A stretch of 64,000 bases of DNA from NCBI GenBank assembly GCA_041649755.1, contig JBAZMK010000005.1, positions 8,597 through 72,596 of the forward strand, written 5' to 3'. The stretch is from Candidatus Pacearchaeota archaeon. GTDB taxonomy: Archaea > Nanobdellota > Nanobdellia > Pacearchaeales > GW2011-AR1. The translations under genes and the position numbers were made by a program. The notes beneath the pieces are model-generated. The model was not told the DNA's origin. It saw only the letters and a list, made by a program, of their open reading frames with translations, and searched no databases. Positions 4,468 through 52,462 of this stretch are shown here, piece after piece (within the stretch, counting starts at the first letter, position 1; every line of letters starts with the position of its first letter).

Positions 4468-6063
4468 CTAAACCCTCCAACCAATGCTTTTCAAATTTTC
4501 TTTAATCTCCTCTTCTAACTTTTCGCTTTCTTTAAATTGCTCTCCTAATTCTTTAGTCAATCTTTCCATCTTCTCATTAAAGACTTCTGGATCTTCTTCT
4601 ACTTCTTCAGTTCCAACATAACGACCAGCAGTAAGGACATATCCATGCTTTTCTATTTCCTCTAACTTAACAGACTTACAGAATCCTGCAACATCTTCAT
4701 ATTTTCCGCCTTCTCCTCTCCAAGCATGATATGTTTCTGAGATTCTTTTAACTTCTTCATCTGTAAGATCCTTATGCCTTCTATCAATCATCACACCATG
4801 TTTTCTAGCATCAATAAACAAAAATTCTCCTTCTCTATCCCTAAACTTATGATTCTTTTTATCTTTTGAAACAAACCATAAACAAGCAGGTATCATTGTG
4901 TTATAGAATAATTGAGAAGGCATAGCAACAATGCAGTCTACTAAATCTGCTTCAATAATGTTTTTCCTTATTTCTCCTTCTCCACCAGTGTTAGAAGATA
5001 AAGAACCATTAGCTAAAACAAACCCTGCAGTTCCATGAGGAGCTAAGTGATGTATAAAATGCTGTACCCATCCAAAGTTAGCATTACCTGTTGGAGGAAC
5101 TCCATATTTCCATCTTATATCTTCTTTTAGCTGTTCTCCTTTCCAATCAGAATCATTGAAGGGTGGATTGGCTAATATGAAATCTGCCTTTAAATCTCTG
5201 TGAGCATCATTAAGAAAACTTCCTTCTGAGTTCCATTGAATATCAGAATCAATTCCTCTAATTGCCAGATTCATTTTACATAGTTTCCACGTTGTTTGGT
5301 TGCTCTCCTGACCGTACACTGAGATGTCACCAATTCTTCCTCCATGACTTTCAACAAACTTTTCACTTTGCACAAACATGCCTCCACTTCCACAACAAGG
5401 ATCAAATATTCTTCCTTTGTAAGGCTCTAACATTTCAACAAGAAGTTTTACAATACATCTAGGTGTATAGAACTGTCCACCTTTCTTTCCTTCTGCATCT
5501 GCAAACTGTCCTAAGAAGTACTCATATACTCTTCCTAACACATCCTTACTCCTGTTTTCTTTATCACCTAAAGCAATAGAACCTATAAGATCTATTAACT
5601 CTCCAAGCCTCTGTTTATCTAGTGCAGGTCTAGCATAATCTTTTGGCAAAACTCCTTTCAAAGAAGGGTTTTCTTTTTCGATTGCATCCATTGCATCATC
5701 AATAATTGTTCCTATCTTTGGTTGCTTTGCATTGCTCTGAAGTTTCTCCCATCTTGCATCTTTTGGAACCCAGAATATATTTTTTGCTTTATATTCATCA
5801 ACGTCCTCCGGATCACCCTGCGGATCATTTTTTATTTCATCGTAAACTTCTCTGAAAGCATCGGAAATGTATTTCAAAAAGATCAAACCTAAGACCACAT
5901 GTTTATACTCTGAAGCATCCATATTGCTTCTAAGTTTATCTGCTGAGAGCCACAGCTTTTGTTCAAATCCCAAGTCTCCCTTATTATTGTTTTTTACCAT
6001 AAATTTAGATATATACCTTTTATAAAAAACTATCGCTATGCCTTCTTTTCTTTTCCAAACCAC
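4468..6063 (-). CDS. hsdM: Type I restriction-modification N6-adenine DNA methyltransferase subunit (HsdM)
   Basis: HsdM N-terminal domain ([32 protein letters not shown]). SAM-binding motif [10 protein letters not shown] and catalytic motif LANPPFN. Confidence 0.9.
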
Positions 6064-6457: not shown

Positions 6458-6856
6458 GTGAAAATGGAAACAATAGGAAAGATTAAATTCGGAAAGTTTG
6501 AATCGGAAATAAAATCTACGCCAAAAGTAATTAAGTATCTAAAAGAAGAAAATTTAAGTTTAGCAGTTTTAATCCCGAATGCTTATGATTTTTATGAAGT
6601 ACTATTATTTGATTCAATTGATGAAGACGAGGATGGAAAACCTGATAAGAAATTTGGAAATAAATTTGATTTAGTCTATTATGGGATAACTGAGAAAGGG
6701 ATTTGGAACGAAAAAGAGGGTTTGAAGGTTAAAGGATTTAAAGAGAATACTCTTCTTAAAAAGAACATACTCTTCCATTCAGGAACGCAAATAAATCAGA
6801 CTCCAAAAAATCCTAAAAAATCTTTTATGGTAAATTATGCGGTTTTGCAAAAATAA
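6458..6856 (+). CDS. Hypothetical 132-aa protein
   Basis: ORF with reasonable codon usage, immediately upstream of and overlapping the Lrp-like regulator gene. Confidence 0.4.
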   Translation: MKMETIGKIKFGKFESEIKSTPKVIKYLKEENLSLAVLIPNAYDFYEVLLFDSIDEDEDGKPDKKFGNKFDLVYYGITEKGIWNEKEGLKVKGFKENTLLKKNILFHSGTQINQTPKNPKKSFMVNYAVLQK

Positions 6857-7796
6857 AATGGACGAAAAAGATAAGTTAATCCTCTTTGAGCTTTTGCAGG
6901 ATTGCAGACAGCCGACTTCTAAAATAGCGAGAGCAGTTAGATTACCTCAGCAAACAGTTAGTTATAGAATTAAAAAGTTTGAAGATTCTAAAGTTATAAA
7001 GAAGTATACTGCAGATATTAATTATCCTAAACTCGGTTACAGTCGGCACTCTTTGTATCTGGATGTCAAGGGAGTTTCAGCTTCGGAAGTTGATAAATAT
7101 CTCAAAGCGATAACAGATATAAAAGAAGTTAGTTGTTGTTACATGCTTCACGAAGTTAGCCAGTGGAAATTATATGTTTCTGTCTGGACAAAAACCCTCG
7201 AGAGATACGACGAGATACAAACAAAAATAACGAGCAAATTCAAGAAAAAAATAAAAAATTATATTTCTTTTCAGAGCGTAAAATCCTTTACTTATTTTGC
7301 TAAAAGATTAAATCCAAATAAAAAATCATTAATTGATGTCAAAGGAAGTTCAGAAAATGTTGAAATCTCCGACGCTGACTGGAAGTTAATTGAAAAGTTA
7401 AAGAAAAATTCCAAAGTTTCAGCGATGGATTTAGCAAATCATTTCAGAACAAACGCGTCTTCAATTACCCGAAGAATAAACTCTCTTAAGAAAAAAGAAA
7501 TTATCGAAAGATTTTATCCGATTCTTGACGTGAAAAAATTAGGGTATACCGAGTACACTTTTATCACTAGAATTGATCCTTCATACAACAAAGAACTAGA
7601 ACAATTCATAGAGTTCACAAAAAAAGACCCGCGATTCGTTATCATGATTAAAGCAGTTGGTTACGTAAATTTATATTACGCATTTCTTATCGAGGACAAA
7701 AAAGAGTTAAGCGGCATCACTGAGAAAATTCATAAGATTTTAGGAAAGGCAGTTTTAGAAGAATATAAAATTGAAGTTGATGAGATGATTAGTTGA
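6837..7796 (+). CDS. Tandem Lrp/AsnC-type HTH transcriptional regulator
   Basis: Two HTH_AsnC-like segments (DKLILFELLQDCRQPTSKIARAVRLPQQTVSYRIKKFEDSKVI and DWKLIEKLKKNSKVSAMDLANHFRTNASSITRRINSLKKKEII), each followed by an RAM-like region. Confidence 0.6.
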   Translation: MRFCKNKMDEKDKLILFELLQDCRQPTSKIARAVRLPQQTVSYRIKKFEDSKVIKKYTADINYPKLGYSRHSLYLDVKGVSASEVDKYLKAITDIKEVSCCYMLHEVSQWKLYVSVWTKTLERYDEIQTKITSKFKKKIKNYISFQSVKSFTYFAKRLNPNKKSLIDVKGSSENVEISDADWKLIEKLKKNSKVSAMDLANHFRTNASSITRRINSLKKKEIIERFYPILDVKKLGYTEYTFITRIDPSYNKELEQFIEFTKKDPRFVIMIKAVGYVNLYYAFLIEDKKELSGITEKIHKILGKAVLEEYKIEVDEMIS

Positions 7797-7800
7797 AAAA

Positions 7801-8331
7801 TTATCTATTTATTTTCTTGTAAATAATATCCTTATAGTCTTTTCCTTTAGTGAGTGTCGAACCCTTTATTTCGCCCTCTTTTTCATAACTTGATTTTAAG
7901 AGTATTTTTTCAACAGATTTATTCAACTCATGAAAATATGCGTATACCTTAAGATACTTCAAATTATCAAATATGAATGAAGTCATCAATTTTACAGCCT
8001 CGCTCATGTAACCCTTATTCCAATAATCCTTTGCAGTCCAAAAACCAATTTCACCTTTTTTATTTTCTTCATCCAAATCAAAAAATCCAATGACTCCTAC
8101 AAAATCTTCGCTTGCTTTTTCATAAACTCCGAAATGATAAGACTTTTTTTCTTTCATCTTTTTATTGCAACTCCTAATATACATTTTAGCATCTTCTAAT
8201 GACTTTGAAGCCTTATAGGGTCCAGAATATTCGTTTAACTTGGGCTCCTTAGAAAATCTATGAAGTTTCTCAGCATCTTTGTCGCCCAAGGGTTTCAGGA
8301 TTATCTTTTCTCCAACAATTTTAGTTTCCAT
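7801..8331 (-). CDS. GNAT family N-acetyltransferase (RimJ/RimL-like)
   Basis: GNAT fold motifs: GVIGFFDLDEENKKGEIGFWTAKDYWNKGYMSEAVK. Last gene of the minus-strand operon that begins with the rSAM peptide locus. Confidence 0.7.
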   Translation of the reverse strand: METKIVGEKIILKPLGDKDAEKLHRFSKEPKLNEYSGPYKASKSLEDAKMYIRSCNKKMKEKKSYHFGVYEKASEDFVGVIGFFDLDEENKKGEIGFWTAKDYWNKGYMSEAVKLMTSFIFDNLKYLKVYAYFHELNKSVEKILLKSSYEKEGEIKGSTLTKGKDYKDIIYKKINR

Positions 8332-8373
8332 TTTAAATAAAAGGATTTTATATTTAAAGGCAATTCTTTTTAA

Positions 8374-8820
8374 TTATATCGAATCGCTTTTATTTTTTAA
8401 ATAATCTTCAATCAACTTAACTTTTTCTTCTCGACCAATTGACTTATAAAATTCAAGAGCACATTCTAAGGGTAGAATTGGAACCTCTAATTCACCCCAG
8501 TTTATTATTCTTACCTCATCAAAATAATTTTTATCTCGATCTCCATAGCAATTAATTTCAACTTCAAAACCGTTTATATCGCAAATTAATGAAGGACCTT
8601 TTATCTTATCGCTGTAGAAATCTTTCGTAATTAAATCTTTTAATGCTTCTCTAAAAATCTCAATTCCTTCTTCATTGGTTGTTATATCTAGGTCTCTAAT
8701 TGAAACATCAAGACCCTGAATCATAAGATTGGCACTTCCTTCTAATTGCCAGACAGGTTTTTTATCCCTTAGCCTTTCTAGGGTAATTTTTAAAACCTCT
8801 CTAATGTCTTTTTCTTCCAT
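8374..8820 (-). CDS. Minimal nucleotidyltransferase (Pol-beta superfamily, ANT/LinB-like)
   Basis: hG[GS]x9-13DhD signature: EGSANLMIQGLDVSIRDLDI. Size ~150 aa, typical of MNT/aminoglycoside-lincosamide NTases. Confidence 0.55.
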   Translation of the reverse strand: MEEKDIREVLKITLERLRDKKPVWQLEGSANLMIQGLDVSIRDLDITTNEEGIEIFREALKDLITKDFYSDKIKGPSLICDINGFEVEINCYGDRDKNYFDEVRIINWGELEVPILPLECALEFYKSIGREEKVKLIEDYLKNKSDSI

Positions 8821-8844
8821 AAAGTTATATTGTAAAGAGGTTTA

Positions 8845-9579
8845 TTAATCTTCTCTAAGGATATCTGCTAATTTCTTCTTAATAGCTTTTTTTTGTTTAA
8901 ATGTTCCGTCTTCTCTTTTCTCAAAAAGAATATATAATTGGGATGCTCTTGCCATTAACCAACTATTTATGTCTTGAACTATTCCATCATAGCTAAATTT
9001 AATGCTTTCTTTATAGTTCGAAATAATTTCTTCTTTTTTCTCTGGACTTGAAATTATTATTGAGGCAACATCTCTTGCAGGATGCCCCAAACCTCCAAGT
9101 TCAAAATCAAAGTAATAATTCTGTCCTTTAAAAGTCACCATGTTTTTTTGTTGTAAATCTCCGTGAAGAAGAGTCTTTAGTTCACGATTGAGTCTAACCT
9201 CCGAAAGTTTTCTTTTAACAAGTGAGCTCAACCCATGAAATAAATTAAGATTTTCAAAAACATAAGAAGAGACTTCACGAATATCATGGTGAATAAAAAT
9301 TTTATTATCTAAAGGATTCTCAAGAAAATAAGAATGAACTTTTGCCCATTCTCTAACTGCAAGACCCACGTCTTTTTTTCCAGTTTCAATAAAAGATGTT
9401 TGGAGTTCTAATCCGTCAACACGATATATTTGTGGAGTTCTAACCAAAGGAATTCTCTGGAATAAATCATAAAAGAATTCCTCCCTCTTTAAGAAAATAG
9501 GCTTCTGATGTGTCTTTGAAACAACTTTACTTCCATCAACTTCATAAATTCTCGAGGTATTTCTATTTAATTCTTCCAT
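8845..9579 (-). CDS. Aminoglycoside-phosphotransferase-fold (APH/choline-kinase-like) kinase
   Basis: Catalytic loop HGDLQQKNM (HGDLxxxN) and DFE metal-binding motif (YYFDFELGGLGHPARDVA). Confidence 0.7.
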   Translation of the reverse strand: MEELNRNTSRIYEVDGSKVVSKTHQKPIFLKREEFFYDLFQRIPLVRTPQIYRVDGLELQTSFIETGKKDVGLAVREWAKVHSYFLENPLDNKIFIHHDIREVSSYVFENLNLFHGLSSLVKRKLSEVRLNRELKTLLHGDLQQKNMVTFKGQNYYFDFELGGLGHPARDVASIIISSPEKKEEIISNYKESIKFSYDGIVQDINSWLMARASQLYILFEKREDGTFKQKKAIKKKLADILRED

Positions 9580-10453
9580 TTTCTTCTGTTAATAAAATAA
9601 CTGAATCTTGTTTGTCTTCTTTTCCTGGAACAATTGATTTGAATCTTCTTTCCAGGTAGTTGAAACCAAATCTTCTAAAAGTTTCTTGTCTTAGTTCACT
9701 TCTATTAATCAACTTTCTATTTTCACTAAAACCTTCTCTTGTATCATAAACATATGCTGCACAAATAATTCCTCCAAGAGTTAAATGCTTTCTTAAAGGA
9801 ACGAGAATCTCCTCACAGAAAGAATCTAAATAATTAGTTTCTCCAGGAAATAGATCTTGAGAATAATCCGCCAAGTTAGAAAGAAGGATGACCTCAAAAT
9901 TATCTTCTAACTTAGAAGTCAGATCTCTAACATCTGAATTAATTAATTTAACTCTTCCATTTCTAATATTAATCCGGGTTCTAATATAATTAAAATCGGA
10001 ATGCAAATAAAGATTGCAAACAGTTCTTAATTCATTTATATCAAACCTCTTATTAAATAACTTAGATTGTCTTATTTGTCTACCATCTTTTTTATATTTC
10101 TTATAGAGACTATCAAAAAAACTTACGCACTCTTCAGACAAGTTTCTTTTTAAACCCTCATAAATTCTGTGGTCCATCGTTCTTTTGCTTCCTGTAAAAA
10201 AATAATCTTTAAAATCTCTTATATCTAAATGCTGTAAAGCTTTAATCTTTAATTCGGCGAATAATAAAGCAAGACGATTTATATCAAAACCAACAACACT
10301 TTTAGCTCCAAAAAAGAAAGGATTGATTACGTGGTCTCCAGAGCCAATAACAGTCAACACATTTTTCCCTTCAAAACCTAACTCTCCCATATATTCTGCG
10401 AGATTTTCTGTTGTAAAAGGGTATACTTTAGATCTTTCTCCAAATGAAGGCAT
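9563..10453 (-). CDS. SAM-binding Rossmann-fold protein (methyltransferase/aminocarboxypropyl-transferase-like, DUF3419-like)
   Basis: Motif I-like VLTVIGSGDHV and an acidic post-I strand (VVGFDIN). Overlaps its neighbours on both sides. Confidence 0.45.
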   Translation of the reverse strand: MPSFGERSKVYPFTTENLAEYMGELGFEGKNVLTVIGSGDHVINPFFFGAKSVVGFDINRLALLFAELKIKALQHLDIRDFKDYFFTGSKRTMDHRIYEGLKRNLSEECVSFFDSLYKKYKKDGRQIRQSKLFNKRFDINELRTVCNLYLHSDFNYIRTRINIRNGRVKLINSDVRDLTSKLEDNFEVILLSNLADYSQDLFPGETNYLDSFCEEILVPLRKHLTLGGIICAAYVYDTREGFSENRKLINRSELRQETFRRFGFNYLERRFKSIVPGKEDKQDSVILLTEENGRIK

Positions 10454-10454
10454 T

Positions 10455-10955
10455 TTAAATTTTTTTGGCTAGAAAAATAATTATCTTATGTTGGTGCATA
10501 TCTTCCCCATGTTTCTTAGATAAACAATCGTGATTATGGATTATTTCCCAGCCAAAGTACAATTTATTTAATTCCTCTTTGTTTGGATAAAAATGAATTT
10601 TGTCATTCGATTCTTCTTGTGACATACAAATTAAAAAGTGGAATCCTCCTAAAATAGTGTTTTCCTGCATTTTTCTAATTAGGTTAGAAGCTTCTTTAAT
10701 TTCAAAAAAATGCAAAATTCCAGATCCAATAATTAAATCATATTTAGTTTCAAACTTAAATTTAGAAAGGTCTTGTTGAATAAATTTAAAATTCTCGGGT
10801 TGCTCTGCTATCCTTTCTTTATCCACCCCTGTAACACTAATTCCTTTTTCAATAAATATTTTAGAAAACTTACAGTTACCACAGCCTAAATCTAGAACCT
10901 TTGAAGGATCTAGCTGTTTTATAATATCAACGATTATTGGTTTGGCTGGTTGCAT
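10455..10955 (-). CDS. Class I SAM-dependent methyltransferase
   Basis: Motif I VLDLGCGNCKF with an acidic motif II (VTGVDKE). 166 aa. Confidence 0.75.
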   Translation of the reverse strand: MQPAKPIIVDIIKQLDPSKVLDLGCGNCKFSKIFIEKGISVTGVDKERIAEQPENFKFIQQDLSKFKFETKYDLIIGSGILHFFEIKEASNLIRKMQENTILGGFHFLICMSQEESNDKIHFYPNKEELNKLYFGWEIIHNHDCLSKKHGEDMHQHKIIIFLAKKI

Positions 10956-12033
10956 TTTCTATATACCTATCCTTTAGATCAGAAGGTTTAACTAAGTTTC
11001 TAAAACACATAGGATCCTTTGCCATGTAATCTCCAGTTGTCGCATAAGCTATAGCTCTGCATCCCTTGCAATGAGAAACATATTCACATCCAGTATCTTT
11101 TTTTAATTTTTTTAAATCCCTTAAATTATGCATTACTTCCTTTTCAGTTATAAGGCTGACCAGCCCCTCACTAATGTGACCTATCTCAATGGGAAGTCTT
11201 CTACATGGATAAACTCTCCCATTAGACAGAACTGAAATTCCGGAATACCCTGCACCACATCCTCCTAAAAATTTTCCAGTATCCCTTGAAGTTCTTTTCA
11301 AAGGGTCATCACAATGCATTAAGTGCCATAATACTTCTGTTTCTAGCAATCTTATTTTCCCTTCGTATTTCTCTTCTAATTTTCTTTGATCACCATATAT
11401 TTGGTATAAACCTTCTGCATCAATAAACTCCGGATCTCTTAGCCCTAAATCTTTTCTTGGGACGTAAGACTGTATTCCAAAAACATCTGCTCCTGCATCG
11501 ATAGAATCTTTTATTGCCTGTTCAATGTGATTTTTATTTGATTGCATCGCAGTAAAAGAAATTGTTACTCCAATCCCCACATCTCTACAATTTGCTATGC
11601 CTTCCATAGCCTTATCAAAAGCATAGTGTCTTTGTCTAACTTGGTTATGTCTTTCCTTGTCTCCATCAATAGAGATTTGTACTCTTTTAATTCCTCTTTC
11701 TTTTAAGGCTCTAGCTTTATCAGGAGTTATGAGAGTTCCATTTGTCAAAAGTTTTGTTGGAACTTGGAATCTTTGGGTATATTCTAATATATCTAATAGA
11801 TCTTTTCTCAAAAGAGGTTCGCCTCCAGAAATATTAAATCTAGGAATCATTGACCACCTTTGTGTTGTTCTAACAAGATCGTCTATCATTCCAGTAACTT
11901 CGCTAAACCCCATTAAACAAGATTCTTCTTGCTTATGTTCTTCTTGCCCTTCTCTAGTATGATAACAATGCTTACACCTAAGATTGCAGTCATTCGTAGA
12001 GTCCCATTGAATGAATATTTGTTTTTTCGTCAT
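10927..12033 (-). CDS. Radical SAM enzyme with C-terminal SPASM domain (peptide-modifying maturase family)
   Basis: CNLRCKHCY is a CxxxCxxC rSAM cluster. C-terminal Cys arrays: CGAGYSGISVLSNGRVYPC, CEYVSHCKGC and a further Cys in MAKDPMCF. These are SPASM/twitch auxiliary-cluster ligands. Confidence 0.85.
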   Translation of the reverse strand: MTKKQIFIQWDSTNDCNLRCKHCYHTREGQEEHKQEESCLMGFSEVTGMIDDLVRTTQRWSMIPRFNISGGEPLLRKDLLDILEYTQRFQVPTKLLTNGTLITPDKARALKERGIKRVQISIDGDKERHNQVRQRHYAFDKAMEGIANCRDVGIGVTISFTAMQSNKNHIEQAIKDSIDAGADVFGIQSYVPRKDLGLRDPEFIDAEGLYQIYGDQRKLEEKYEGKIRLLETEVLWHLMHCDDPLKRTSRDTGKFLGGCGAGYSGISVLSNGRVYPCRRLPIEIGHISEGLVSLITEKEVMHNLRDLKKLKKDTGCEYVSHCKGCRAIAYATTGDYMAKDPMCFRNLVKPSDLKDRYIENATSQTNNR

Positions 12034-12081
12034 ATTAAATTTACCAATACATCACTCTCCTTGAAATATCAGTAAAGAAAA

Positions 12082-12243
12082 TTAATCCCTTGGAAGATAA
12101 TCATTCCCATCACAACTAACGCAGTCTTGGCATCCTGAAACACAAGTATACCCTTCTTGTCTAACTTCAGGCATCATGCTTTCAAGAAAGTCTATTTCTT
12201 CAGGTGTTTTCTCAACCACATCTTGTAAACATCCATTTACCAT
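12082..12243 (-). CDS. 53-aa Cys-rich candidate RiPP precursor peptide (MVNGCLQDVVEKTPEEIDFLESMMPEVRQEGYTCVSGCQDCVSCDGNDYLPRD); absent from the ORF track
   Basis: Hand-translated minus-strand ORF that ends 49 nt upstream of the rSAM/SPASM gene start. The C-terminal core has four Cys in CxxxCxxCxxC spacing, plus Asp/Thr/Ser. An archaeal TATA box lies about 23-30 nt upstream of the ATG. Confidence 0.45.
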   Translation of the reverse strand: MVNGCLQDVVEKTPEEIDFLESMMPEVRQEGYTCVSGCQDCVSCDGNDYLPRD

Positions 12244-12264
12244 AAATTATAGAGTTAAATAAGG

Positions 12265-12273
12265 TATATAAAG
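12265..12273 (-). promoter_or_regulatory. TATA-box-like element (TTTATATA) upstream of the precursor-peptide ORF; leaderless-type start
   Basis: Minus-strand reading gives ctTTATATAccttatttaactctataatttATG. The A/T box is about 23-30 nt before the ATG. Confidence 0.35.
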
Positions 12274-12319: not shown

Positions 12320-12739
12320 TCACTTAAACAACTCTAAACATTCATCTCTCAAAAATCCGCCTTCAATTTTTATTTTATTTCCGCCGTGCTTATTCAATTT
12401 CTTGTCGGTTATATCTATTTCTTTAAAGCCGTGTTTTATAGCGTCTTTGTTGCTTGCCCCGAAAACAATTTTATCGACGTCGGTTACCCAAGCCATATAG
12501 AAACACATCGGACAAGGCTCGCAGGTCGTGTAAAGCGTATACCCTTTTAGATTATTCTTTCCTATCTTGTCGGTCGCCCTAATAATCGCCTCAGTCTCAG
12601 CATGATAACGAACATCCCCGACAGGTCTTTTCCCCGCCCTAGAAATTATCGCATCCCCCTTAACAATAACTGCCCCAAAATGATGCCCATGCTTCTTAGC
12701 GTCCTTAATCGCCTCCCGCATAAAATCCTCTTTTTTCAT
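12320..12739 (-). CDS. Cytidine/deoxycytidylate-type zinc deaminase (TadA/dCMP deaminase-like)
   Basis: Zinc-binding motifs HAETEAI and TTCEPCPMC (H-A-E ... PCxxC). Confidence 0.75.
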   Translation of the reverse strand: MKKEDFMREAIKDAKKHGHHFGAVIVKGDAIISRAGKRPVGDVRYHAETEAIIRATDKIGKNNLKGYTLYTTCEPCPMCFYMAWVTDVDKIVFGASNKDAIKHGFKEIDITDKKLNKHGGNKIKIEGGFLRDECLELFK

Positions 12740-12790
12740 AAATTTTTCTAATTAAACAACTATTTAAATTTAGAGATTGTACAATAAGTT

Positions 12791-13237
12791 ATGACAATAA
12801 ACTACACTCCCGGAGATTTAATCGACCACCACGCAGTCTCAGCAGTTATTAAGAATAGCGAGGGAGATATCCTAATGCAAGATCACGTTAAGTATGGTTT
12901 TTGGACAATTCCAATCGGAAAGGCGGAACCTAATCAAGATCCAATTGAAGCAATAAAACAGGAAGCTTTCGAAGAATGCAATTTAATGATTAAAGAACTA
13001 AAAGAAATCGCATACAAGGAAGTCGAATACGAAAGAAATGAAAACAATATTAAAGCATTCACCCACGTATACGAAATTATCTCTTATTCAGGAGAACTAC
13101 AAAACAAAGAACCTCATAAACATAACGAACAGAAATTTATGTCTTTAGAAGAAATAAAAAAGATACCTTATCTATCAGACTCTACGATTTTCTTTTTAGA
13201 GAGTTTAGGTTTTAAGAGGGATGCGAGGTTGGATTAA
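12791..13237 (+). CDS. NUDIX-like hydrolase (degenerate Nudix box)
   Basis: GKAEPNQDPIEAIKQEAFEECNL loosely fits GX5EX7REUXEEXGU. The fit is weak. Confidence 0.4.
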   Translation: MTINYTPGDLIDHHAVSAVIKNSEGDILMQDHVKYGFWTIPIGKAEPNQDPIEAIKQEAFEECNLMIKELKEIAYKEVEYERNENNIKAFTHVYEIISYSGELQNKEPHKHNEQKFMSLEEIKKIPYLSDSTIFFLESLGFKRDARLD

Positions 13238-13266
13238 TTTTATAAGTCTCAAAACTATCCAATTCT

Positions 13267-13995
13267 ATGACATGCTATTCCCACTCCCGTCTCTCAACTT
13301 ACGAAACCTGCCCCTATAAATACAAGCTTCAATATATTGATAGAATAAAAGTAGATGTTCCAACGACAATTGAGGCGTTTATGGGAGATTTGGTGCACCA
13401 GACTCTCGAAAAGCTATACAAGGACAAAAAGTTCAAGAAAGTCGTTTCTAAGGCCACGTTGCTTAAATTTTATAAGGATTTGTGGGCGAAGGAGTATTCT
13501 GAAGATATTCTAGTGGCCAAGGCTGACCAAGGGATAACTTCAGAGAATTATCGAAAAATGGGCCTTAAATTTATTGAAGATTATTATGATAAATACAAGC
13601 CGTTTAACCAATTGACTATTTTAGGACTTGAAACTCAAGACCGGATGACCTTGCCGGATGGAAACCAATGGCACGTTAGAATCGATAAGTTAGCTTGTGA
13701 CCAAGAAGGTAATTATTACGTTTGCGATTATAAGACAAATGCTCGAATGAAGGATCAAGAGGAAGCCGATGCGGACAGACAACTTGCACTTTATTCGATT
13801 TGGGTTAAAGATAAATTCAAGGATGCAAAATCTGTTAAATTAGTTTGGCATATGTTGGCTTTCAATAAGGATGCGGTTTCAGAGAGGACGGACGAGGAGT
13901 TGGAGAAATTGCAACAAGATGTTTGTGATAAGATTAAAGAGATTGAGTCGGCGACAGAATTTCCTAGAAATCAAACGGTTTATCAGGCTTCGTAG
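13267..13995 (+). CDS. PD-(D/E)xK nuclease, Cas4/RecB-family-like
   Basis: N-terminal SRLSTYETCPYKYKLQYI motif, a VCDYKT (D-x-K) catalytic core and a QLALYS (QxxxY) motif. Confidence 0.6.
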   Translation: MTCYSHSRLSTYETCPYKYKLQYIDRIKVDVPTTIEAFMGDLVHQTLEKLYKDKKFKKVVSKATLLKFYKDLWAKEYSEDILVAKADQGITSENYRKMGLKFIEDYYDKYKPFNQLTILGLETQDRMTLPDGNQWHVRIDKLACDQEGNYYVCDYKTNARMKDQEEADADRQLALYSIWVKDKFKDAKSVKLVWHMLAFNKDAVSERTDEELEKLQQDVCDKIKEIESATEFPRNQTVYQAS

Positions 13996-14664
13996 CGTCA
14001 TTTTCTCTAGACTAATAGCCGTTTCCTCCATTCTCTCCAAAACCTCTAACACGTCGCCTAAGATCGGTGGTTGATTCTTCCAGCTTTTCTTCTCATTCAT
14101 ATAAATGTCCCTTCGCTCGTATGCTTCAGTCAATGCCTGATCAATAAAAGACTTCTGCGGTTCTGTCAAATTCCCAAGCATTACTGGCATCAAATCCATC
14201 AAAGAAAGTCGCTTCTCGGCATAATCGTGTCCCATCAAATCAAGAGGATTAATAATAGTCTTAGAAGTCCTAGACAAATCTATCCTCTGACCTTTAAACT
14301 TTTCAACTAAGCCCTTATATTCACTTTGTGGGTCAATTACAATAACTTTCGTACCATTGAGCAGATGTCTCGTGATAAATAATTTAGTCATATAGCTTTT
14401 ACCTGCCCCCGAACTTGCCAAACACATCCCATTTGAATTTGAAAGTTTGAAAATATCCCTAATTATAGGGATATTATTTTTATTTAACCCAAACCAAACG
14501 CCAGTCTCATCAAATTTAAAGAAAGAAGATGTAAAAGGGAAAAAAGCCGAAAGTGCCGAAGTCGTAATATTTCTAGTTGCCCCAAGAAAATCTTTAGCCA
14601 AAGGAAGACAAGACTTAAATCCTTGAATCATTCTAAAATTAGGTTGTCTGGGAATTATTAACAA
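13879..14664 (-). pseudogene. HerA/DUF87-like P-loop ATPase fragment (truncated; 3' end overlaps the convergent nuclease gene by ~117 nt)
   Basis: Walker A SSGAGKSY followed by VIVIDPQSEYKGL, the HerA/DUF87 GxxGSGKS...IxDPHGEY pattern. It is only 261 aa and has no room for an N-terminal domain because the pyruvate kinase gene ends 26 nt upstream. The C-terminal ~35 aa are low-complexity. Confidence 0.4.
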
Positions 14665-21656: not shown

Positions 21657-21816
21657 TGCTCCCACCGGGATTTGAACCCGGGTCTCCGCCGTTCTCCAAT
21701 GAATCTCAAAGAGATTATCGGTAGTGGTTCAAGCGAACCTGAAATTTATTGTCTCACCGACTAAAATTTCCCACCTCTTGAGAGGGCGGTATCCTTGGCC
21801 TCTAGACTATGAGAGC
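21657..21816 (-). tRNA. tRNA-Glu(CUC) candidate with ~87-nt intron at canonical 37/38 position; no encoded CCA
   Basis: Exon 1 (21816..21779) is GCTCTCATAGTCTAGAGGCCAAGGATACCGCCCTCTCA. Exon 2 (21691..21657) is CGGCGGAGACCCGGGTTCAAATCCCGGTGGGAGCA. The 7-bp acceptor pairs GCTCTCA/TGGGAGC, the T-arm is CCGGG-TTCAAAT-CCCGG, and the anticodon stem CCGCC/GGCGG forms only after the intron is removed. Loop is CUCUCAA. Isotype and intron boundaries need tRNAscan confirmation. Confidence 0.5.
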
Positions 21817-51784: not shown

Positions 51785-52462
51785 ATGACTAAGACTATAG
51801 CGAGAATAAAAAAAGAAGGAAAACATTTTGAAATATTAGTAGATTTAGAAGAAGCTTTAAAAGTTGCAAAAGGAGAAAAAAATGCAAATTTAAGCTCGGC
51901 AATTTTAACAGACGCAGTTTTTTACAATCTAAAATCTGGCGAACACGCCTCCGAGGAAGATTTAGAAAAAGCATTTGAAACTACAAATTTTGAAGAAGTA
52001 GCAGAAAAAATAATCAAAACTGGCGAAATAGTGAGAACCACAGAATCAATGAAAGAAGAACAAAACAAAAAATACAAACAAGTCGTAGATTTTCTTTCAA
52101 AAAACGCAGTCTCTCCAGAAGGGCGCCCATACACTCCTGACAGGATTATGAAAGCCCTAAGCGAGGCTCATGTTAATATAAAAAACAAGCCCATAGAAAT
52201 ACAGATAGACGAAATTCTAGAACAACTTTTCAGAGTGCTACCTATAAAAATAGAAAGGAAAAAAGTTCGTCTAACCATCCCTGCAATACACACAGGAAAA
52301 GCCTACGGAATAGTCAAAGAATTCATAAAAGAAGAAGATTGGAAATCAAACGGAGATTTAGAAGTTGTAGTTGAAATGCCCACTGCAATGATTTTTGATT
52401 TCTACGATAAGATAAATTCAGCAACTCACGGCTCAGTTTTAAGTGAAGAAATAAAAAATTAA
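51785..52462 (+). CDS. sdo1: SBDS-family ribosome maturation protein (Sdo1 homologue)
   Basis: N-terminal FYSH-domain start ARIKKEGKHFEILVDLEEALKVAKGE...AVFYNLKSGEHASEEDLEKAF. Confidence 0.85.
   Translation: MTKTIARIKKEGKHFEILVDLEEALKVAKGEKNANLSSAILTDAVFYNLKSGEHASEEDLEKAFETTNFEEVAEKIIKTGEIVRTTESMKEEQNKKYKQVVDFLSKNAVSPEGRPYTPDRIMKALSEAHVNIKNKPIEIQIDEILEQLFRVLPIKIERKKVRLTIPAIHTGKAYGIVKEFIKEEDWKSNGDLEVVVEMPTAMIFDFYDKINSATHGSVLSEEIKN

What the first reader, a model, noticed from the sequence alone, without database searches (positions are those of the whole stretch)
8374..12273. Candidate archaeal RiPP (ranthipeptide/sactipeptide-like) biosynthetic operon: Cys-rich precursor, rSAM/SPASM maturase and a tailoring-enzyme train
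Seven to eight minus-strand genes are packed with overlaps or gaps of 50 nt or less. In order they are a 53-aa peptide with a CxxxCxxCxxC, Asp-rich C-terminal core, then a radical SAM enzyme with a full SPASM Cys array. Next come a class I SAM methyltransferase, a second SAM-binding Rossmann protein, an APH-fold kinase, a minimal nucleotidyltransferase and a GNAT. A small Cys-rich ORF directly upstream of a SPASM-domain rSAM is the defining genomic signature of SCIFF/ranthipeptide and sactipeptide clusters. I do not know of a cluster that combines it with kinase, nucleotidyltransferase, acetyltransferase and two SAM enzymes in a DPANN-like archaeon. This is my top candidate for an undescribed system.
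Basis: partly seen in the sequence, partly recalled or inferred. Interest (0 to 1): 0.85.

Follow-up and report, generated by a model that had tools for sequence, protein, structure and literature searches.

The report
Cysteine-rich modified-peptide gene cluster in DPANN archaea
A tiny symbiotic archaeon carries a conserved gene set that most likely makes a chemically modified, cysteine-rich small peptide; no curated family model matches it at threshold and I found no paper on it, although its general kind is already known.

Summary
Window 8845-12273 (minus strand) carries a 53-aa Cys-rich ORF, a radical SAM/SPASM enzyme, a TehB-like methyltransferase, a DUF3419/BtaA-like SAM enzyme and an APH-fold kinase.

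The peptide is not a chance ORF. 84 of 96 related DPANN loci with enough upstream DNA have a small Cys-rich ORF just before the rSAM gene (66 distinct peptides). They share a leader motif and an invariant CxxCxxC. The methyltransferase follows the rSAM in 87 of 95 loci.

The kinase and DUF3419 occur only in the window's clade and track single core residues. Ser43 is present in every kinase-positive locus. Asp45 is present in every DUF3419-positive locus and is Gly where that gene is absent or decayed.

The nucleotidyltransferase and GNAT never recur with the cluster, so I treat them as neighbours.

No curated rSAM family cut-off is met, and the peptides match no model. The same three-gene layout occurs in uncharacterised ACGX cassettes of Saccharibacteria.

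Verdict: a real RiPP-like system, a new variant of a known kind. Its chemistry is unknown; thioether cross-links are my leading guess.

The parts
12266..12273 (-). TATA-like box (TTTATATA), centred about 26 nt upstream of the precursor ATG. This suggests a leaderless first gene of the operon.
   Evidence: Read directly from the sequence. It is weak evidence in a 31-36% GC genome.
12082..12243 (-). Precursor peptide (53 aa). Leader is about residues 1-31, with the conserved motif T13-x-x-E16-x-x-F19-L20-x-S22-M23-M24-P25. Core is about residues 32-48 (YTCVSGCQDCVSCDGND). A short follower (YLPRD) comes after.
   Evidence: Homologous Cys-rich ORFs lie directly upstream of the rSAM gene in 84 of 96 related loci, giving 66 distinct peptides. 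E16, C38, C41 and C44 are invariant across clades. There are 1705 synonymous versus 1525 non-synonymous codon differences in the conserved 28 codons. No Pfam or NCBIfam model matches. NCBI annotates it as hypothetical protein WC494_03215.
10927..12033 (-). Radical SAM/SPASM enzyme, the presumed peptide maturase. It has C16-x3-C20-x2-C23 and six conserved C-terminal Cys, and no RRE domain.
   Evidence: Pfam Radical_SAM 87.5 bits and SPASM 27.4 bits. The best NCBIfam matches are ACGX 180, NirJ2 177 and AhbD 171 bits, all far below their cut-offs. The AF2 model has pLDDT 92. Foldseek matches SkfB, BlsE, SuiB, PqqE and anSME; SuiB and anSME reach TM 0.66-0.70. The best PDB profile hits are SkfB at 6e-22 and CteB at 4e-21.
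10455..10955 (-). TehB-like class I SAM methyltransferase and core partner of the rSAM. Its acceptor is unknown.
   Evidence: Pfam TehB 68.8 bits. The closest solved structures are TehB 4dq0 and 2xva at about 1e-14. A homologue is present beside the rSAM gene in 87 of 95 loci, in almost all cases immediately downstream. A homologous methyltransferase holds the same position in all 8 CPR ACGX-type loci.
9563..10453 (-). DUF3419/BtaA-family SAM-dependent transferase. It is a clade-specific tailoring enzyme and is linked to core residue Asp45.
   Evidence: Pfam DUF3419 36.6 bits. Only 27 relatives were found among 5.8 billion proteins; NCBI names them 'DUF3419 family' or 'BtaA family'. The AF2 model has pLDDT 92, with a class I methyltransferase fold only distantly like NNMT (TM about 0.46). 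All 7 distinct precursors in DUF3419-positive loci read ..SC-D-GND. All DUF3419-negative loci read C-G-G (or C-A-S in one). L096, with a decayed DUF3419 gene, reads C-G-G.
8845..9579 (-). APH-fold kinase. It is a tailoring enzyme found mainly in clade A and is linked to core residue Ser43.
   Evidence: The HGDLQQKN and DFE motifs are present. D141, N146 and D158 are invariant. All 12 homologues hit Pfam APH, best 1.6e-7. The profile hits amicoumacin kinase at 4.8e-5. It is present in 21 loci, always downstream on the same strand. Ser43 is kept in every kinase-positive precursor. It is replaced by Pro or His in two of three kinase-less lineages.

Best explanation
This is a RiPP-type pathway, meaning a ribosomally made, post-translationally modified peptide. 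It is found almost only in DPANN archaea labelled Pacearchaeota, Woesearchaeota or Nanoarchaeota.

Shown:
- A 53-aa precursor with a conserved leader and a C-terminal CxxCxxC-containing core is encoded directly upstream of an RRE-less radical SAM/SPASM enzyme.
- A TehB-like methyltransferase follows the rSAM gene.
- These three genes form the conserved core of the system.

Inferred mechanism:
1. The rSAM binds the leader and cleaves SAM to the 5'-deoxyadenosyl radical.
2. It abstracts a hydrogen atom in the core. An auxiliary Fe-S cluster with only three Cys ligands probably holds a substrate Cys thiolate.
3. The most likely products are Cys-derived thioether cross-links to Asp, Asn, Ser or Thr carbons (sacti/ranthipeptide-like). 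My estimate for this is about 45% of the probability that the peptide is the substrate.
4. A less likely product is a Cys-derived heterocycle such as the SbtM-type thiooxazole (about 20%). The remainder is other chemistry.
5. The methyltransferase then methylates the product; the acceptor is unknown.

In the window's clade two further enzymes decorate the core. The APH-fold kinase most likely phosphorylates Ser43. The DUF3419/BtaA-like SAM enzyme most likely alkylates Asp45, by methyl or 3-amino-3-carboxypropyl transfer.

Leader removal and export are not encoded in the window's cluster. Other clades carry HExxH metallopeptidase-like genes inside the cluster.

The nucleotidyltransferase and GNAT downstream are unrelated neighbours.
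For: Conservation of the peptide and its partners:
- A Cys-rich small ORF lies upstream of the rSAM in 84 of 96 loci, plus 3 without an ATG start, across 40-100% rSAM identity.
- The peptides share a leader motif and invariant C38, C41 and C44.
- Codon differences indicate purifying selection: 1705 synonymous versus 1525 non-synonymous.
- The methyltransferase is adjacent in 87 of 95 loci.

The rSAM enzyme:
- Its fold and closest solved relatives are peptide-modifying SPASM/twitch enzymes such as SkfB, CteB and SuiB.
- Its CxxxCxxC motif and SPASM cysteines are invariant in 68 homologues.

Links between tailoring genes and core residues:
- Seven distinct precursors in DUF3419-positive loci all have Asp45.
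- At least 13 distinct precursors in DUF3419-negative loci have Gly or Ala there.
- L096, inside the DUF3419-positive clade, has a decayed DUF3419 gene and Gly45.
- Every kinase-positive precursor keeps Ser43.
- Kinase-less lineages L012/L170 have Pro and L100/L172 have His at that position.

Candidate leader peptidases in other clades:
- A 222-aa HExxH protein follows the methyltransferase in 18 clade-C loci.
- A Peptidase_MA_2 protein follows the kinase in L002-5 and L094.

A parallel architecture exists elsewhere. All 8 Saccharibacteria/CPR loci related to L075 carry a Cys-rich peptide, an rSAM and a TehB-like methyltransferase. The L075 rSAM passes the TIGR04340 ACGX cut-off at 415 bits against 400.

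The flanking genes differ between loci, as expected for an accessory cluster.
Against: - There is no experimental or expression evidence.
- By HMM score the rSAM is as close to haem-type enzymes (NirJ2 177, AhbD 171 bits) as to the peptide-type ACGX family (180 bits).
- Its nearest bacterial relatives, at 31-37% identity, mostly lack an adjacent Cys-rich peptide ORF and lack the methyltransferase.
- No RRE domain, protease or transporter is present in the window's cluster.
- One canonical SPASM cysteine is absent.
- The Asp45-DUF3419 link rests mainly on one clade plus one independent loss.
- The Ser43-kinase link has a counter-example. L174 lacks the kinase but keeps Ser43.
- The chemistry (thioether, heterocycle or something else) cannot be told from sequence.
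Confidence: 0.75

Rival explanations
1. The peptide is a substrate, but the end product is a peptide-derived cofactor or intracellular metal- or redox-active molecule, as with PQQ or mycofactocin. It would not be a secreted natural product.
For: - The window's cluster has no protease or exporter.
- MftC and PqqE appear among the rSAM's HMM and fold matches.
- Cys/Asp-rich cores are good metal ligands.
- The methyltransferase is TehB-like, a family that acts on soft nucleophiles.
Against: - The core sequence is hypervariable between clades. This is unlike cofactor precursors, whose reacting residues are fixed.
- The cluster is patchy and sits in variable neighbourhoods, and decayed copies exist.
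- Other clades carry a peptidase-like gene in the cluster.
- No oxidoreductase that would use such a cofactor is conserved nearby.
Confidence: 0.12
2. The small Cys-rich protein is not a substrate. It is a mini Fe-S or metal-binding redox partner, or a chaperone, for an rSAM that modifies a small molecule as AhbD or NirJ do.
For: - The invariant CxxCxxC plus a fourth Cys resembles ferredoxin-type cluster-binding motifs.
- The rSAM's scores against NirJ2 and AhbD equal its ACGX score.
- The rSAM has no RRE domain.
Against: - The layout is leader-like N-terminus plus C-terminal core. The non-Cys core residues and the number of Cys (3-7) vary widely.
- Non-Cys core residues co-vary with the kinase and DUF3419 genes.
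- No tetrapyrrole genes appear in any neighbourhood.
- DPANN archaea generally lack haem synthesis (my own knowledge, not tested here).
Confidence: 0.07
3. The rSAM, kinase, nucleotidyltransferase, deaminase and NUDIX genes together form a viperin-like nucleotide-modifying antiviral system within a defence island.
For: - PADLOC pVip models hit the rSAM core at 74 bits, and one of those models is 'viperins associated with kinases'.
- The flanks hold HsdM, a deaminase with a weak dCTPase hit, a NUDIX protein resembling PDC-S07, a PD-(D/E)XK nuclease and a HerA-like fragment.
Against: - The pVip match covers only the generic rSAM core, residues 8-168.
- The protein has a SPASM domain with six conserved Cys, which viperins lack.
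- No viperin model appears among the 25 best NCBIfam hits of the window rSAM.
- The nucleotidyltransferase and deaminase were not found in any of about 90 related loci; only the peptide and methyltransferase recur widely. The NUDIX was not screened across those loci, though NUDIX genes lie upstream in L002, L003 and L005.
- The kinase is APH-type, not a nucleotide kinase.
Confidence: 0.03

Closest known systems
ACGX system (NCBIfam TIGR04340 radical SAM/SPASM protein with an ACGX-repeat peptide). It is defined bioinformatically, and I know of no characterisation.
   Same: - Both have a short (about 340-370 aa) RRE-less rSAM/SPASM enzyme directly after a roughly 60-aa peptide with a Cys-rich C-terminus.
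- In the ACGX-type loci examined, both are followed by a roughly 167-aa TehB-like methyltransferase. All 8 CPR loci of this type have it, and the L075 rSAM scores 415 bits against a 400-bit cut-off.
- ACGX is the best NCBIfam hit of the window rSAM.
- The methyltransferases are homologous: 24% identity over the full length, E 7e-15.
   Different: - The window rSAM scores only 180 bits, and rSAM identity to the CPR proteins is just 26-28%.
- The DPANN peptides have no ACGX repeats and use a different leader.
- The DPANN rSAM lacks the first Cys of the CX2CX5CX2C block that L075 retains.
- The kinase, DUF3419 and HExxH additions were not seen in the CPR cassettes.
Ranthipeptides / SCIFF (CteB, Tte1186 and PapB maturases; thioethers from Cys to non-alpha carbons)
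   Same: - Both have a Cys-rich, Asp/Ser/Thr/Asn-rich core beside an rSAM/SPASM enzyme.
- CteB is the second-best solved-structure match by sequence, at 4e-21.
- As I recall for CteB (my own knowledge, not tested here), the auxiliary cluster I region appears to have only three Cys ligands. That would leave a site for a substrate thiolate.
   Different: - The HMM cut-offs are missed by a wide margin: PapB 87 of 340 bits, the ScfB-related model 72 of 855 bits.
- The peptide matches no NCBIfam model, at E up to 10.
- There is no N-terminal RRE domain.
- The obligatory TehB-like methyltransferase is not a ranthipeptide feature.
SbtM thio(seleno)oxazole maturase
   Same: - It is a SPASM rSAM acting on Cys/Sec C-beta in a Gly-Cys context (PMC9204691).
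- It is the second-best family for the ACGX-type protein of L075, at 206 bits.
- The window core contains one Gly-Cys (G37-C38).
   Different: - The window rSAM scores only 95 bits, and mainly over its N-terminal half.
- SbtM is about 516 aa with an N-terminal extension.
- Gly-Cys is not conserved across the DPANN clades.
Sactipeptide maturases (SkfB, AlbA)
   Same: SkfB is the best match both by sequence profile (6e-22) and by fold (Foldseek 3.6e-17, TM 0.63). Like these enzymes, the window rSAM would carry out Cys-directed radical chemistry on a ribosomal peptide.
   Different: - SkfB and AlbA carry an RRE domain, and SkfB has a twitch domain rather than a SPASM domain.
- Neither the SkfB nor the AlbA model appears among the 25 best NCBIfam hits for the window rSAM, all of which are below cut-off. 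The StsB sactipeptide model scores 71 of 625 bits.
- The precursor families are unrelated.
AhbD / NirJ2 haem-pathway rSAM/SPASM enzymes
   Same: They have a similar length and lack an RRE domain. Their HMM scores (171-177 bits) equal the ACGX score.
   Different: - The cut-offs of 500 bits are not approached.
- No tetrapyrrole genes are present in any neighbourhood.
- A conserved precursor-like peptide and a methyltransferase are there instead.

Membership tests
Radical SAM superfamily | CxxxCxxC cluster motif and the Radical_SAM domain | tested here: met
   C16-x3-C20-x2-C23 is invariant in 68 homologues. Pfam PF04055 scores 87.5 bits against a cut-off of 29.5.
SPASM subfamily | C-terminal SPASM domain matching PF13186 | tested here: met
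   PF13186 scores 27.4 bits against a cut-off of 21.5. The fold matches SuiB, PqqE and anSME over the full length, TM 0.63-0.70.
SPASM subfamily | Complete seven-Cys motif CX9-15GX4C ... CX2CX5CX3C ... C for two auxiliary clusters | tested here: inconclusive
   Six Cys are conserved: C259, G-x4-C277, C316-x5-C322-x2-C325 and C343. The first Cys of the CX2C pair aligns to Asp/Asn. Cluster content cannot be determined from sequence.
RiPP system (general) | A short precursor with a conserved leader and variable core, encoded next to its modifying enzyme and conserved across relatives | tested here: met
   84 of 96 loci, 66 distinct peptides, a shared leader motif and a variable core.
RiPP system (general) | Demonstrated post-translational modification of the peptide | not testable with these tools
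   This needs co-expression and mass spectrometry.
SCIFF / ranthipeptide | Precursor matching the SCIFF or related precursor models | tested here: not met
   No NCBIfam or Pfam family matches the window peptide at E up to 10. The other clades have no relevant hits.
SCIFF / ranthipeptide | Maturase passing the PapB or ScfB-type model cut-offs and carrying an N-terminal RRE | tested here: not met
   PapB scores 87 of 340 bits and the ScfB-related model 72 of 855 bits. The rSAM motif starts at residue 16, which leaves no room for an RRE.
SCIFF / ranthipeptide | Thioether from the Cys sulfur to a beta or gamma carbon of the acceptor residue | not testable with these tools
   This needs MS/MS and NMR.
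Sactipeptide | Maturase of the AlbA/SkfB/StsB type forming Cys-S to C-alpha bonds | tested here: not met
   StsB scores 71 of 625 bits, and the other sactipeptide models do not appear among the 25 best hits for the window rSAM. The similarity to SkfB is superfamily-level, at 21% identity. The bond chemistry is untestable here.
ACGX system (TIGR04340/TIGR04341) | rSAM passing the TIGR04340 cut-off (400 bits) | tested here: not met
   The window rSAM scores 180 bits. The Saccharibacteria L075 protein scores 415 bits.
ACGX system (TIGR04340/TIGR04341) | Precursor with tandem ACGX repeats | tested here: not met
   The core reads CVSGCQDCVSCDG. It has no ACGX repeats, and no model is hit.
ACGX system (TIGR04340/TIGR04341) | Cassette of peptide, rSAM and TehB-like methyltransferase. 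This feature was observed here in CPR members; it is not a curated criterion. | tested here: met
   The same order and gene sizes occur in the window and in 8 of 8 CPR loci.
AhbD / NirJ haem-type rSAM | Passing the equivalog cut-offs and sitting among tetrapyrrole pathway genes | tested here: not met
   Scores are 171-177 bits against cut-offs of 500. No tetrapyrrole genes were seen in the Pfam-annotated neighbourhoods, and none stood out among the conserved neighbour families.
Prokaryotic viperin (pVip) | Viperin-specific C-terminal extension, no SPASM domain, passing the viperin model | tested here: not met
   The PADLOC pVip hit covers only rSAM core residues 8-168. A SPASM domain is present.
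Class V lanthipeptide (LxmK/X/Y) | APH-like kinase together with a lyase and a cyclase | tested here: not met
   The LxmK model scores 16.6 of 315 bits. No lyase or cyclase gene is conserved in the neighbourhoods.

The most novel reading that the evidence does not exclude
This could be a DPANN-specific RiPP class with new chemistry. The reading has three parts.
- An RRE-less SPASM enzyme that lacks one canonical auxiliary-cluster cysteine converts the CxxCxxC core into something other than a plain sacti- or ranthionine. One possibility is Cys-derived thiooxazoles or thioaldehyde-derived rings that the TehB-like enzyme then S-methylates.
- The window's clade adds Ser phosphorylation and BtaA-like 3-amino-3-carboxypropyl (or methyl) transfer to Asp. 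As far as I know, neither has been reported on an rSAM-modified peptide.
- The cassette shares ancestry with ACGX cassettes of CPR bacteria. In that case the two groups of ultra-small episymbionts would use related peptides in dealing with hosts or competitors.
Probability: 0.3. Interest if true: 0.8.

Novelty: new variant of a known kind. Interest (0 to 1): 0.6.

Why it matters
DPANN archaea have tiny genomes and depend on hosts, and almost nothing is known about any specialised metabolites they make. This work defines a peptide-modification cassette recurring in about 90 non-redundant DPANN-type loci (28 GTDB species-representative genomes), with 66 distinct precursor sequences.

It gives residue-level predictions that can be tested directly: Ser43 for the kinase and Asp45 for the BtaA-like enzyme. 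The proposed experiments need only short synthetic genes.

It also gives a functional context to three poorly understood enzyme groups. These are the short RRE-less SPASM enzymes near ACGX, AhbD and NirJ; the TehB-like methyltransferases; and DUF3419 outside lipid synthesis.

Finally, it links the system by architecture to the uncharacterised ACGX cassettes of Saccharibacteria. The general kind (rSAM-modified Cys-rich peptide) is well known, so the advance is a new family and possibly new tailoring chemistry, not a new principle.

Tried and rejected
- NCBIfam and Pfam searches with peptides from all clades gave no meaningful hit.
- Literature searches found no description of this family or of ACGX. 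The terms covered DPANN, RiPP, ranthipeptide, Saccharibacteria with SPASM, ACGX, TIGR04340, and Woese/Pacearchaeota with radical SAM. The first 'ACGX' search returned only unrelated acronyms.
- The archaeal RiPP survey PMC12144867 mentions predicted ranthi- and sactipeptide clusters in DPANN only in general terms.
- Sequence searches of the DUF3419-like and APH-like proteins against the PDB gave nothing useful as single sequences. A profile rescued the APH assignment.
- The fold search for the DUF3419 model returned only generic class I methyltransferases. It therefore cannot distinguish methyl from aminocarboxypropyl transfer.
- The afdb50 fold library was unavailable.
- A viral-contig scan found no relatives.
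- A weak tblastn hit of the clade-C HExxH protein at window 52249-52380 lies antisense to a 225-aa plus-strand ORF (51785-52462). It is spurious.
- Bacterial homologues at 31-37% identity (Nitrospirota, Desulfobulbia) were checked as possible relatives of the system. They mostly lack an adjacent Cys-rich peptide ORF and lack the methyltransferase.
- The viperin idea raised by PADLOC was rejected because only the generic core is matched.
- I rejected the nucleotidyltransferase and GNAT as cluster members because they co-occur with it in none of about 90 loci.
- I could not compute cluster geometry from the AF2 model, because model coordinates are not exposed to the script sandbox.

Full report
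**What is in the window**

The window is from a DPANN archaeon. The rSAM protein is identical to one annotated in a 'Candidatus Pacearchaeota archaeon' MAG on an 81-kb contig. One tRNA gene carries a long intron.

Seven genes lie head to tail on the minus strand between 7801 and 12243:
- a 53-aa ORF (12082-12243)
- a 368-aa radical SAM protein (10927-12033)
- a 166-aa methyltransferase (10455-10955)
- a 296-aa DUF3419 protein (9563-10453)
- a 244-aa APH-like protein (8845-9579)
- a 148-aa nucleotidyltransferase-like protein (8374-8820)
- a 176-aa GNAT (7801-8331)

Spacing in that order is 48 nt gap, 29 nt overlap, 1 nt gap, 17 nt overlap, 24 nt gap and 42 nt gap. A TTTATATA box lies about 26 nt upstream of the small ORF's ATG.

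Two caveats apply. The nucleotidyltransferase call is sub-threshold (19.8 bits against a cut-off of 21). The SPASM region has six conserved cysteines, not the canonical seven: the first Cys of the CX2CX5CX3C block aligns to Asp or Asn.

**Is the small ORF real?**

Yes. A protein search found 2776 rSAM homologues at E <= 1e-20. The closest 120, at 49-100% identity, come from metagenomes and from Pace-, Woese- or Nanoarchaeota MAGs.

I collected loci from three sources: contig look-ups, one genome per GTDB species and JGI metagenomes. This gave about 90 non-redundant DPANN-type loci.

- Of 96 loci with at least 250 nt upstream, 84 have a small ORF with three or more Cys ending within 200 nt of the rSAM start. 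These give 66 distinct peptides.
- Three more loci carry the peptide in frame without an ATG start.
- Most of the rest are truncated rSAM genes, such as L127, where the 5' third of the rSAM and the peptide have been deleted.

Across rSAM identities of 40-100%, the peptides share two features. One is a leader motif, [ST]-x-x-E-x-x-[FYL]-[LF]-x-x-[MI]; in the window this is T13..E16..F19-L20..M23. The other is an invariant C38-x2-C41-x2-C44. The rest of the core differs by clade:
- clade A: YTCVSGCxxCVSC[DG]GND
- clade B: CYDCDSCNSCGSGDCNSCCEVVDD
- clade C: YHCDPCDACGPDAC..DD
- clade D: NCNTCKQCPGCGCMCNND

Among 21 distinct clade-A genes, the 28 best-conserved codons show 1705 synonymous against 1525 non-synonymous codon differences. 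That indicates clear purifying selection.

A profile search found 45 peptide clusters. All are annotated 'hypothetical' and none has a Pfam domain. NCBI calls the window's ORF hypothetical protein WC494_03215.

**Which genes belong to the system?**

I used tblastn with the window's proteins against all loci, and an unsupervised clustering of neighbouring ORFs.

- The TehB-like methyltransferase is next to the rSAM in 87 of 95 loci with enough downstream sequence.
- The APH-like gene is present in 21 loci. Twenty of these have at least 61% rSAM identity to the window. The exception is L137, at 52% rSAM identity with a 25%-identical APH.
- The DUF3419 gene is in 9 loci, all within clade A.
- The nucleotidyltransferase and GNAT of the window occur in no other locus. 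Two distant GNAT-like matches lie kilobases from the rSAM gene on the opposite strand, in unrelated positions. The GNAT also has its own TATA-like box.
- The deaminase upstream does not recur either.

The system is therefore a core of peptide, rSAM and methyltransferase. The kinase and DUF3419 are tailoring genes in the window's clade.

Other clades add different genes. A 222-aa protein with an HExxH motif, and a weak SprT-like hit, follows the methyltransferase in 18 clade-C loci. A Peptidase_MA_2 protein follows the kinase in a marine clade-A lineage. These are plausible leader peptidases. The window has none within 64 kb.

**Covariation between tailoring genes and core residues**

Asp45 and DUF3419:
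- All seven distinct precursors from DUF3419-positive loci read ...S-C-D-G-N-D.
- All DUF3419-negative clade-A precursors (at least 13 distinct) have Gly there, or Ala in one lineage.
- On an rSAM tree the DUF3419-positive loci form one clade. Most of the signal could therefore come from a single gain.
- L096 lies inside that clade. Its DUF3419 gene has decayed to a 42-aa N-terminal and an 83-aa C-terminal fragment, and its peptide reads C-G-G-N-D. This is a second, independent event.
- Gene order also differs within the clade: methyltransferase-DUF3419-kinase in most loci, but methyltransferase-kinase-DUF3419 in L001/L009.

Ser43 and the kinase:
- Every kinase-positive precursor has Ser43, in the pattern C-x-S-C.
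- Three kinase-less lineages are informative. L012/L170 has Pro, L100/L172 has His, and L174 keeps Ser.
- The pattern fits relaxed constraint after kinase loss, but it is not perfect.

This covariation is the strongest evidence that the peptide is the substrate. It gives specific predictions: the kinase acts on Ser43, and DUF3419 acts on or requires Asp45.

**The enzymes**

rSAM/SPASM enzyme:
- C16-x3-C20-x2-C23 starts almost at the N-terminus, so there is no RRE domain.
- The AF2 model is confident (pLDDT 92, pTM 0.90).
- It superposes on SkfB, BlsE, SuiB, PqqE, anSME and ChlB. SuiB and anSME reach TM 0.66-0.70.
- By sequence profile the closest solved proteins are the thioether-forming SkfB (6e-22) and CteB (4e-21).
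- No NCBIfam family is met. The top scores are ACGX 180 (cut-off 400), NirJ2 177 and AhbD 171 (cut-offs 500). Further down come GeoRSP 116, SbtM 95, MftC 90 and PapB 87.
- Sequence alone therefore cannot separate a peptide-type from a haem-type enzyme. The conserved context decides.
- Bacterial homologues at 31-37% identity mostly lack an adjacent Cys-rich peptide ORF and lack the methyltransferase.

Methyltransferase: it is TehB-like. The closest solved structures are TehB 4dq0 and 2xva at about 1e-14.

DUF3419 protein:
- It has only 27 detectable relatives among 5.8 billion proteins. NCBI names them 'BtaA family' or 'DUF3419 family'.
- No solved homologue is detectable by sequence.
- Its confident model shows a class I methyltransferase fold with a helical insertion, only loosely like NNMT.
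- BtaA transfers the 3-amino-3-carboxypropyl group of SAM (my own knowledge). Either methyl or aminocarboxypropyl transfer is therefore possible.
- A distant relative sits in a different DPANN-like biosynthetic cluster (L168). That cluster contains a B12-rSAM, a second rSAM, an ATP-grasp ligase and a methyltransferase.

Kinase: it has the HxDxxxxN and DFE motifs. D141, N146 and D158 are invariant. Its profile matches amicoumacin kinase, APH(2'') and choline kinase.

**Relation to known systems**

The most informative comparison is with the ACGX system.
- The rSAM homologue from a goat-gut Saccharibacteria genome (L075) passes the TIGR04340 cut-off at 415 bits. SbtM is its second-best family at 206 bits.
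- That locus, and all seven other CPR loci of this type, have the same layout. It runs from a roughly 63-aa peptide ending in a Cys/Gly/Ser-rich stretch, to the rSAM, to a 169-aa TehB-like methyltransferase.
- The two methyltransferase groups are homologous over their full length.

The DPANN system is therefore architecturally the same kind of cassette as ACGX, but it fails both curated ACGX criteria. rSAM identity between the two groups is only 26-28%, so common ancestry is plausible but not shown.

ACGX has no published characterisation that I could find.

SbtM makes a thio(seleno)oxazole at Gly-Cys by abstracting hydrogen from the Cys C-beta (PMC9204691). This keeps a heterocycle-forming alternative alive.

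SCIFF/ranthipeptide and sactipeptide membership is not met on either the peptide or the maturase models.

**Mechanism and confidence**

- I am fairly confident (about 0.75) that this is a RiPP-type pathway with the gene membership given above.
- The chemistry is inferred. Thioether cross-linking is the leading guess, for three reasons. The nearest solved relatives are thioether synthases. The core composition resembles SCIFF and PapA cores. The auxiliary-cluster I region seems to have three Cys ligands, as I recall for CteB.
- The methyl acceptor is unknown.
- Biological role is not addressed by any data here. The patchy distribution, variable flanks (often toxin-antitoxin, restriction-modification or nuclease genes) and decayed copies fit an accessory trait involved in conflict or communication better than a housekeeping cofactor.

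**Verdict**

The cluster has five genes rather than seven or eight.

It is not a member of the named ranthipeptide, sactipeptide or ACGX families. I rate it as a new variant of a known kind.

It is moderately interesting. It appears to be the first RiPP-like family defined specifically for DPANN archaea. It comes with testable residue-level predictions and an intriguing parallel in CPR bacteria.

Noticed in passing
window 7801-8820 (-): A nucleotidyltransferase-like gene (8374-8820; GS...DxD motif, sub-threshold Aminoglyc_resit hit) and a RimJ/RimL-type GNAT (7801-8331) lie directly downstream of the cluster. Neither occurs in any related locus. A TTTAAATA box precedes the GNAT. Their own function as a pair is unknown.
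   Followed up: partly
window 4468-6063 and 12320-14664: The cluster's flanks look like a defence or variable island. They hold a type I restriction-modification HsdM, a cytidine/dCMP-type deaminase (weak anti-phage dCTP deaminase hit) and a NUDIX protein resembling PADLOC candidate PDC-S07. They also hold a PD-(D/E)XK Cas4-like nuclease and a 261-aa HerA/DUF87-like ORF whose 3' end overlaps the nuclease ORF on the opposite strand. Related loci also sit next to MazE, ParE, Fic, DNA methylase and PD-(D/E)XK genes (L001, L170).
   Followed up: partly
window 6837-7796 (+): A 319-aa double winged-helix (AsnC/MarR-type) regulator lies beside the GNAT on the opposite strand; the two genes converge. 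A similar 322-aa regulator flanks the unrelated DUF3419-containing cluster in L168. No regulator family stood out among the conserved neighbour families across the rSAM loci.
   Followed up: no
L168:1413-7627: This is a second, different biosynthetic-looking operon containing a distant DUF3419 relative. In order it encodes a 167-aa unknown protein, a B12-binding rSAM, a CoaE-like kinase and a 330-aa rSAM. These are followed by DUF3419, a cyanophycin-synthetase-like ATP-grasp ligase and a methyltransferase. It may be another uncharacterised peptide or small-molecule pathway.
   Followed up: partly
L120:2507-3178, L025:7569-8234 and 16 other clade-C loci: A conserved protein of about 222 aa with an HExxH motif near residue 138 follows the methyltransferase in clade C. 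It has no Pfam family beyond a weak SprT-like hit. It is a candidate dedicated leader peptidase. A different zincin (Peptidase_MA_2, HELAH) takes the equivalent place in L002-5 and L094.
   Followed up: partly
L075:5723-7569 and L072, L078, L080, L081, L084, L085, L086: Saccharibacteria and other CPR bacteria carry ACGX-type cassettes with a TehB-like methyltransferase. Their precursors end in ...GGDCCCTGSGGDGSGSCSSCGSCGSNTH. The presence of the methyltransferase in these cassettes does not seem to be documented.
   Followed up: partly
L127:5034-6925, L096:2171-2586, L171:5079-6144: Decayed copies of the cluster exist. In L127 the rSAM is 5'-truncated, the peptide is lost, and the methyltransferase and kinase are intact. 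In L096 the DUF3419 gene is reduced to two fragments. In L171 the methyltransferase is truncated and the kinase is frameshifted; sequencing error is not excluded.
   Followed up: partly
L159:1171-1330, L079:7028-7180: In two bacterial loci with distant rSAM homologues (34% and 27% identity), a Cys-rich small ORF lies immediately downstream of the rSAM rather than upstream. One example ends ...ECNCGGSCSTCSSGCGDGCSGMD.
   Followed up: no
window 21657-21816 (-): A tRNA gene spans 160 nt, which implies a long intron. This is consistent with an archaeal origin.
   Followed up: no
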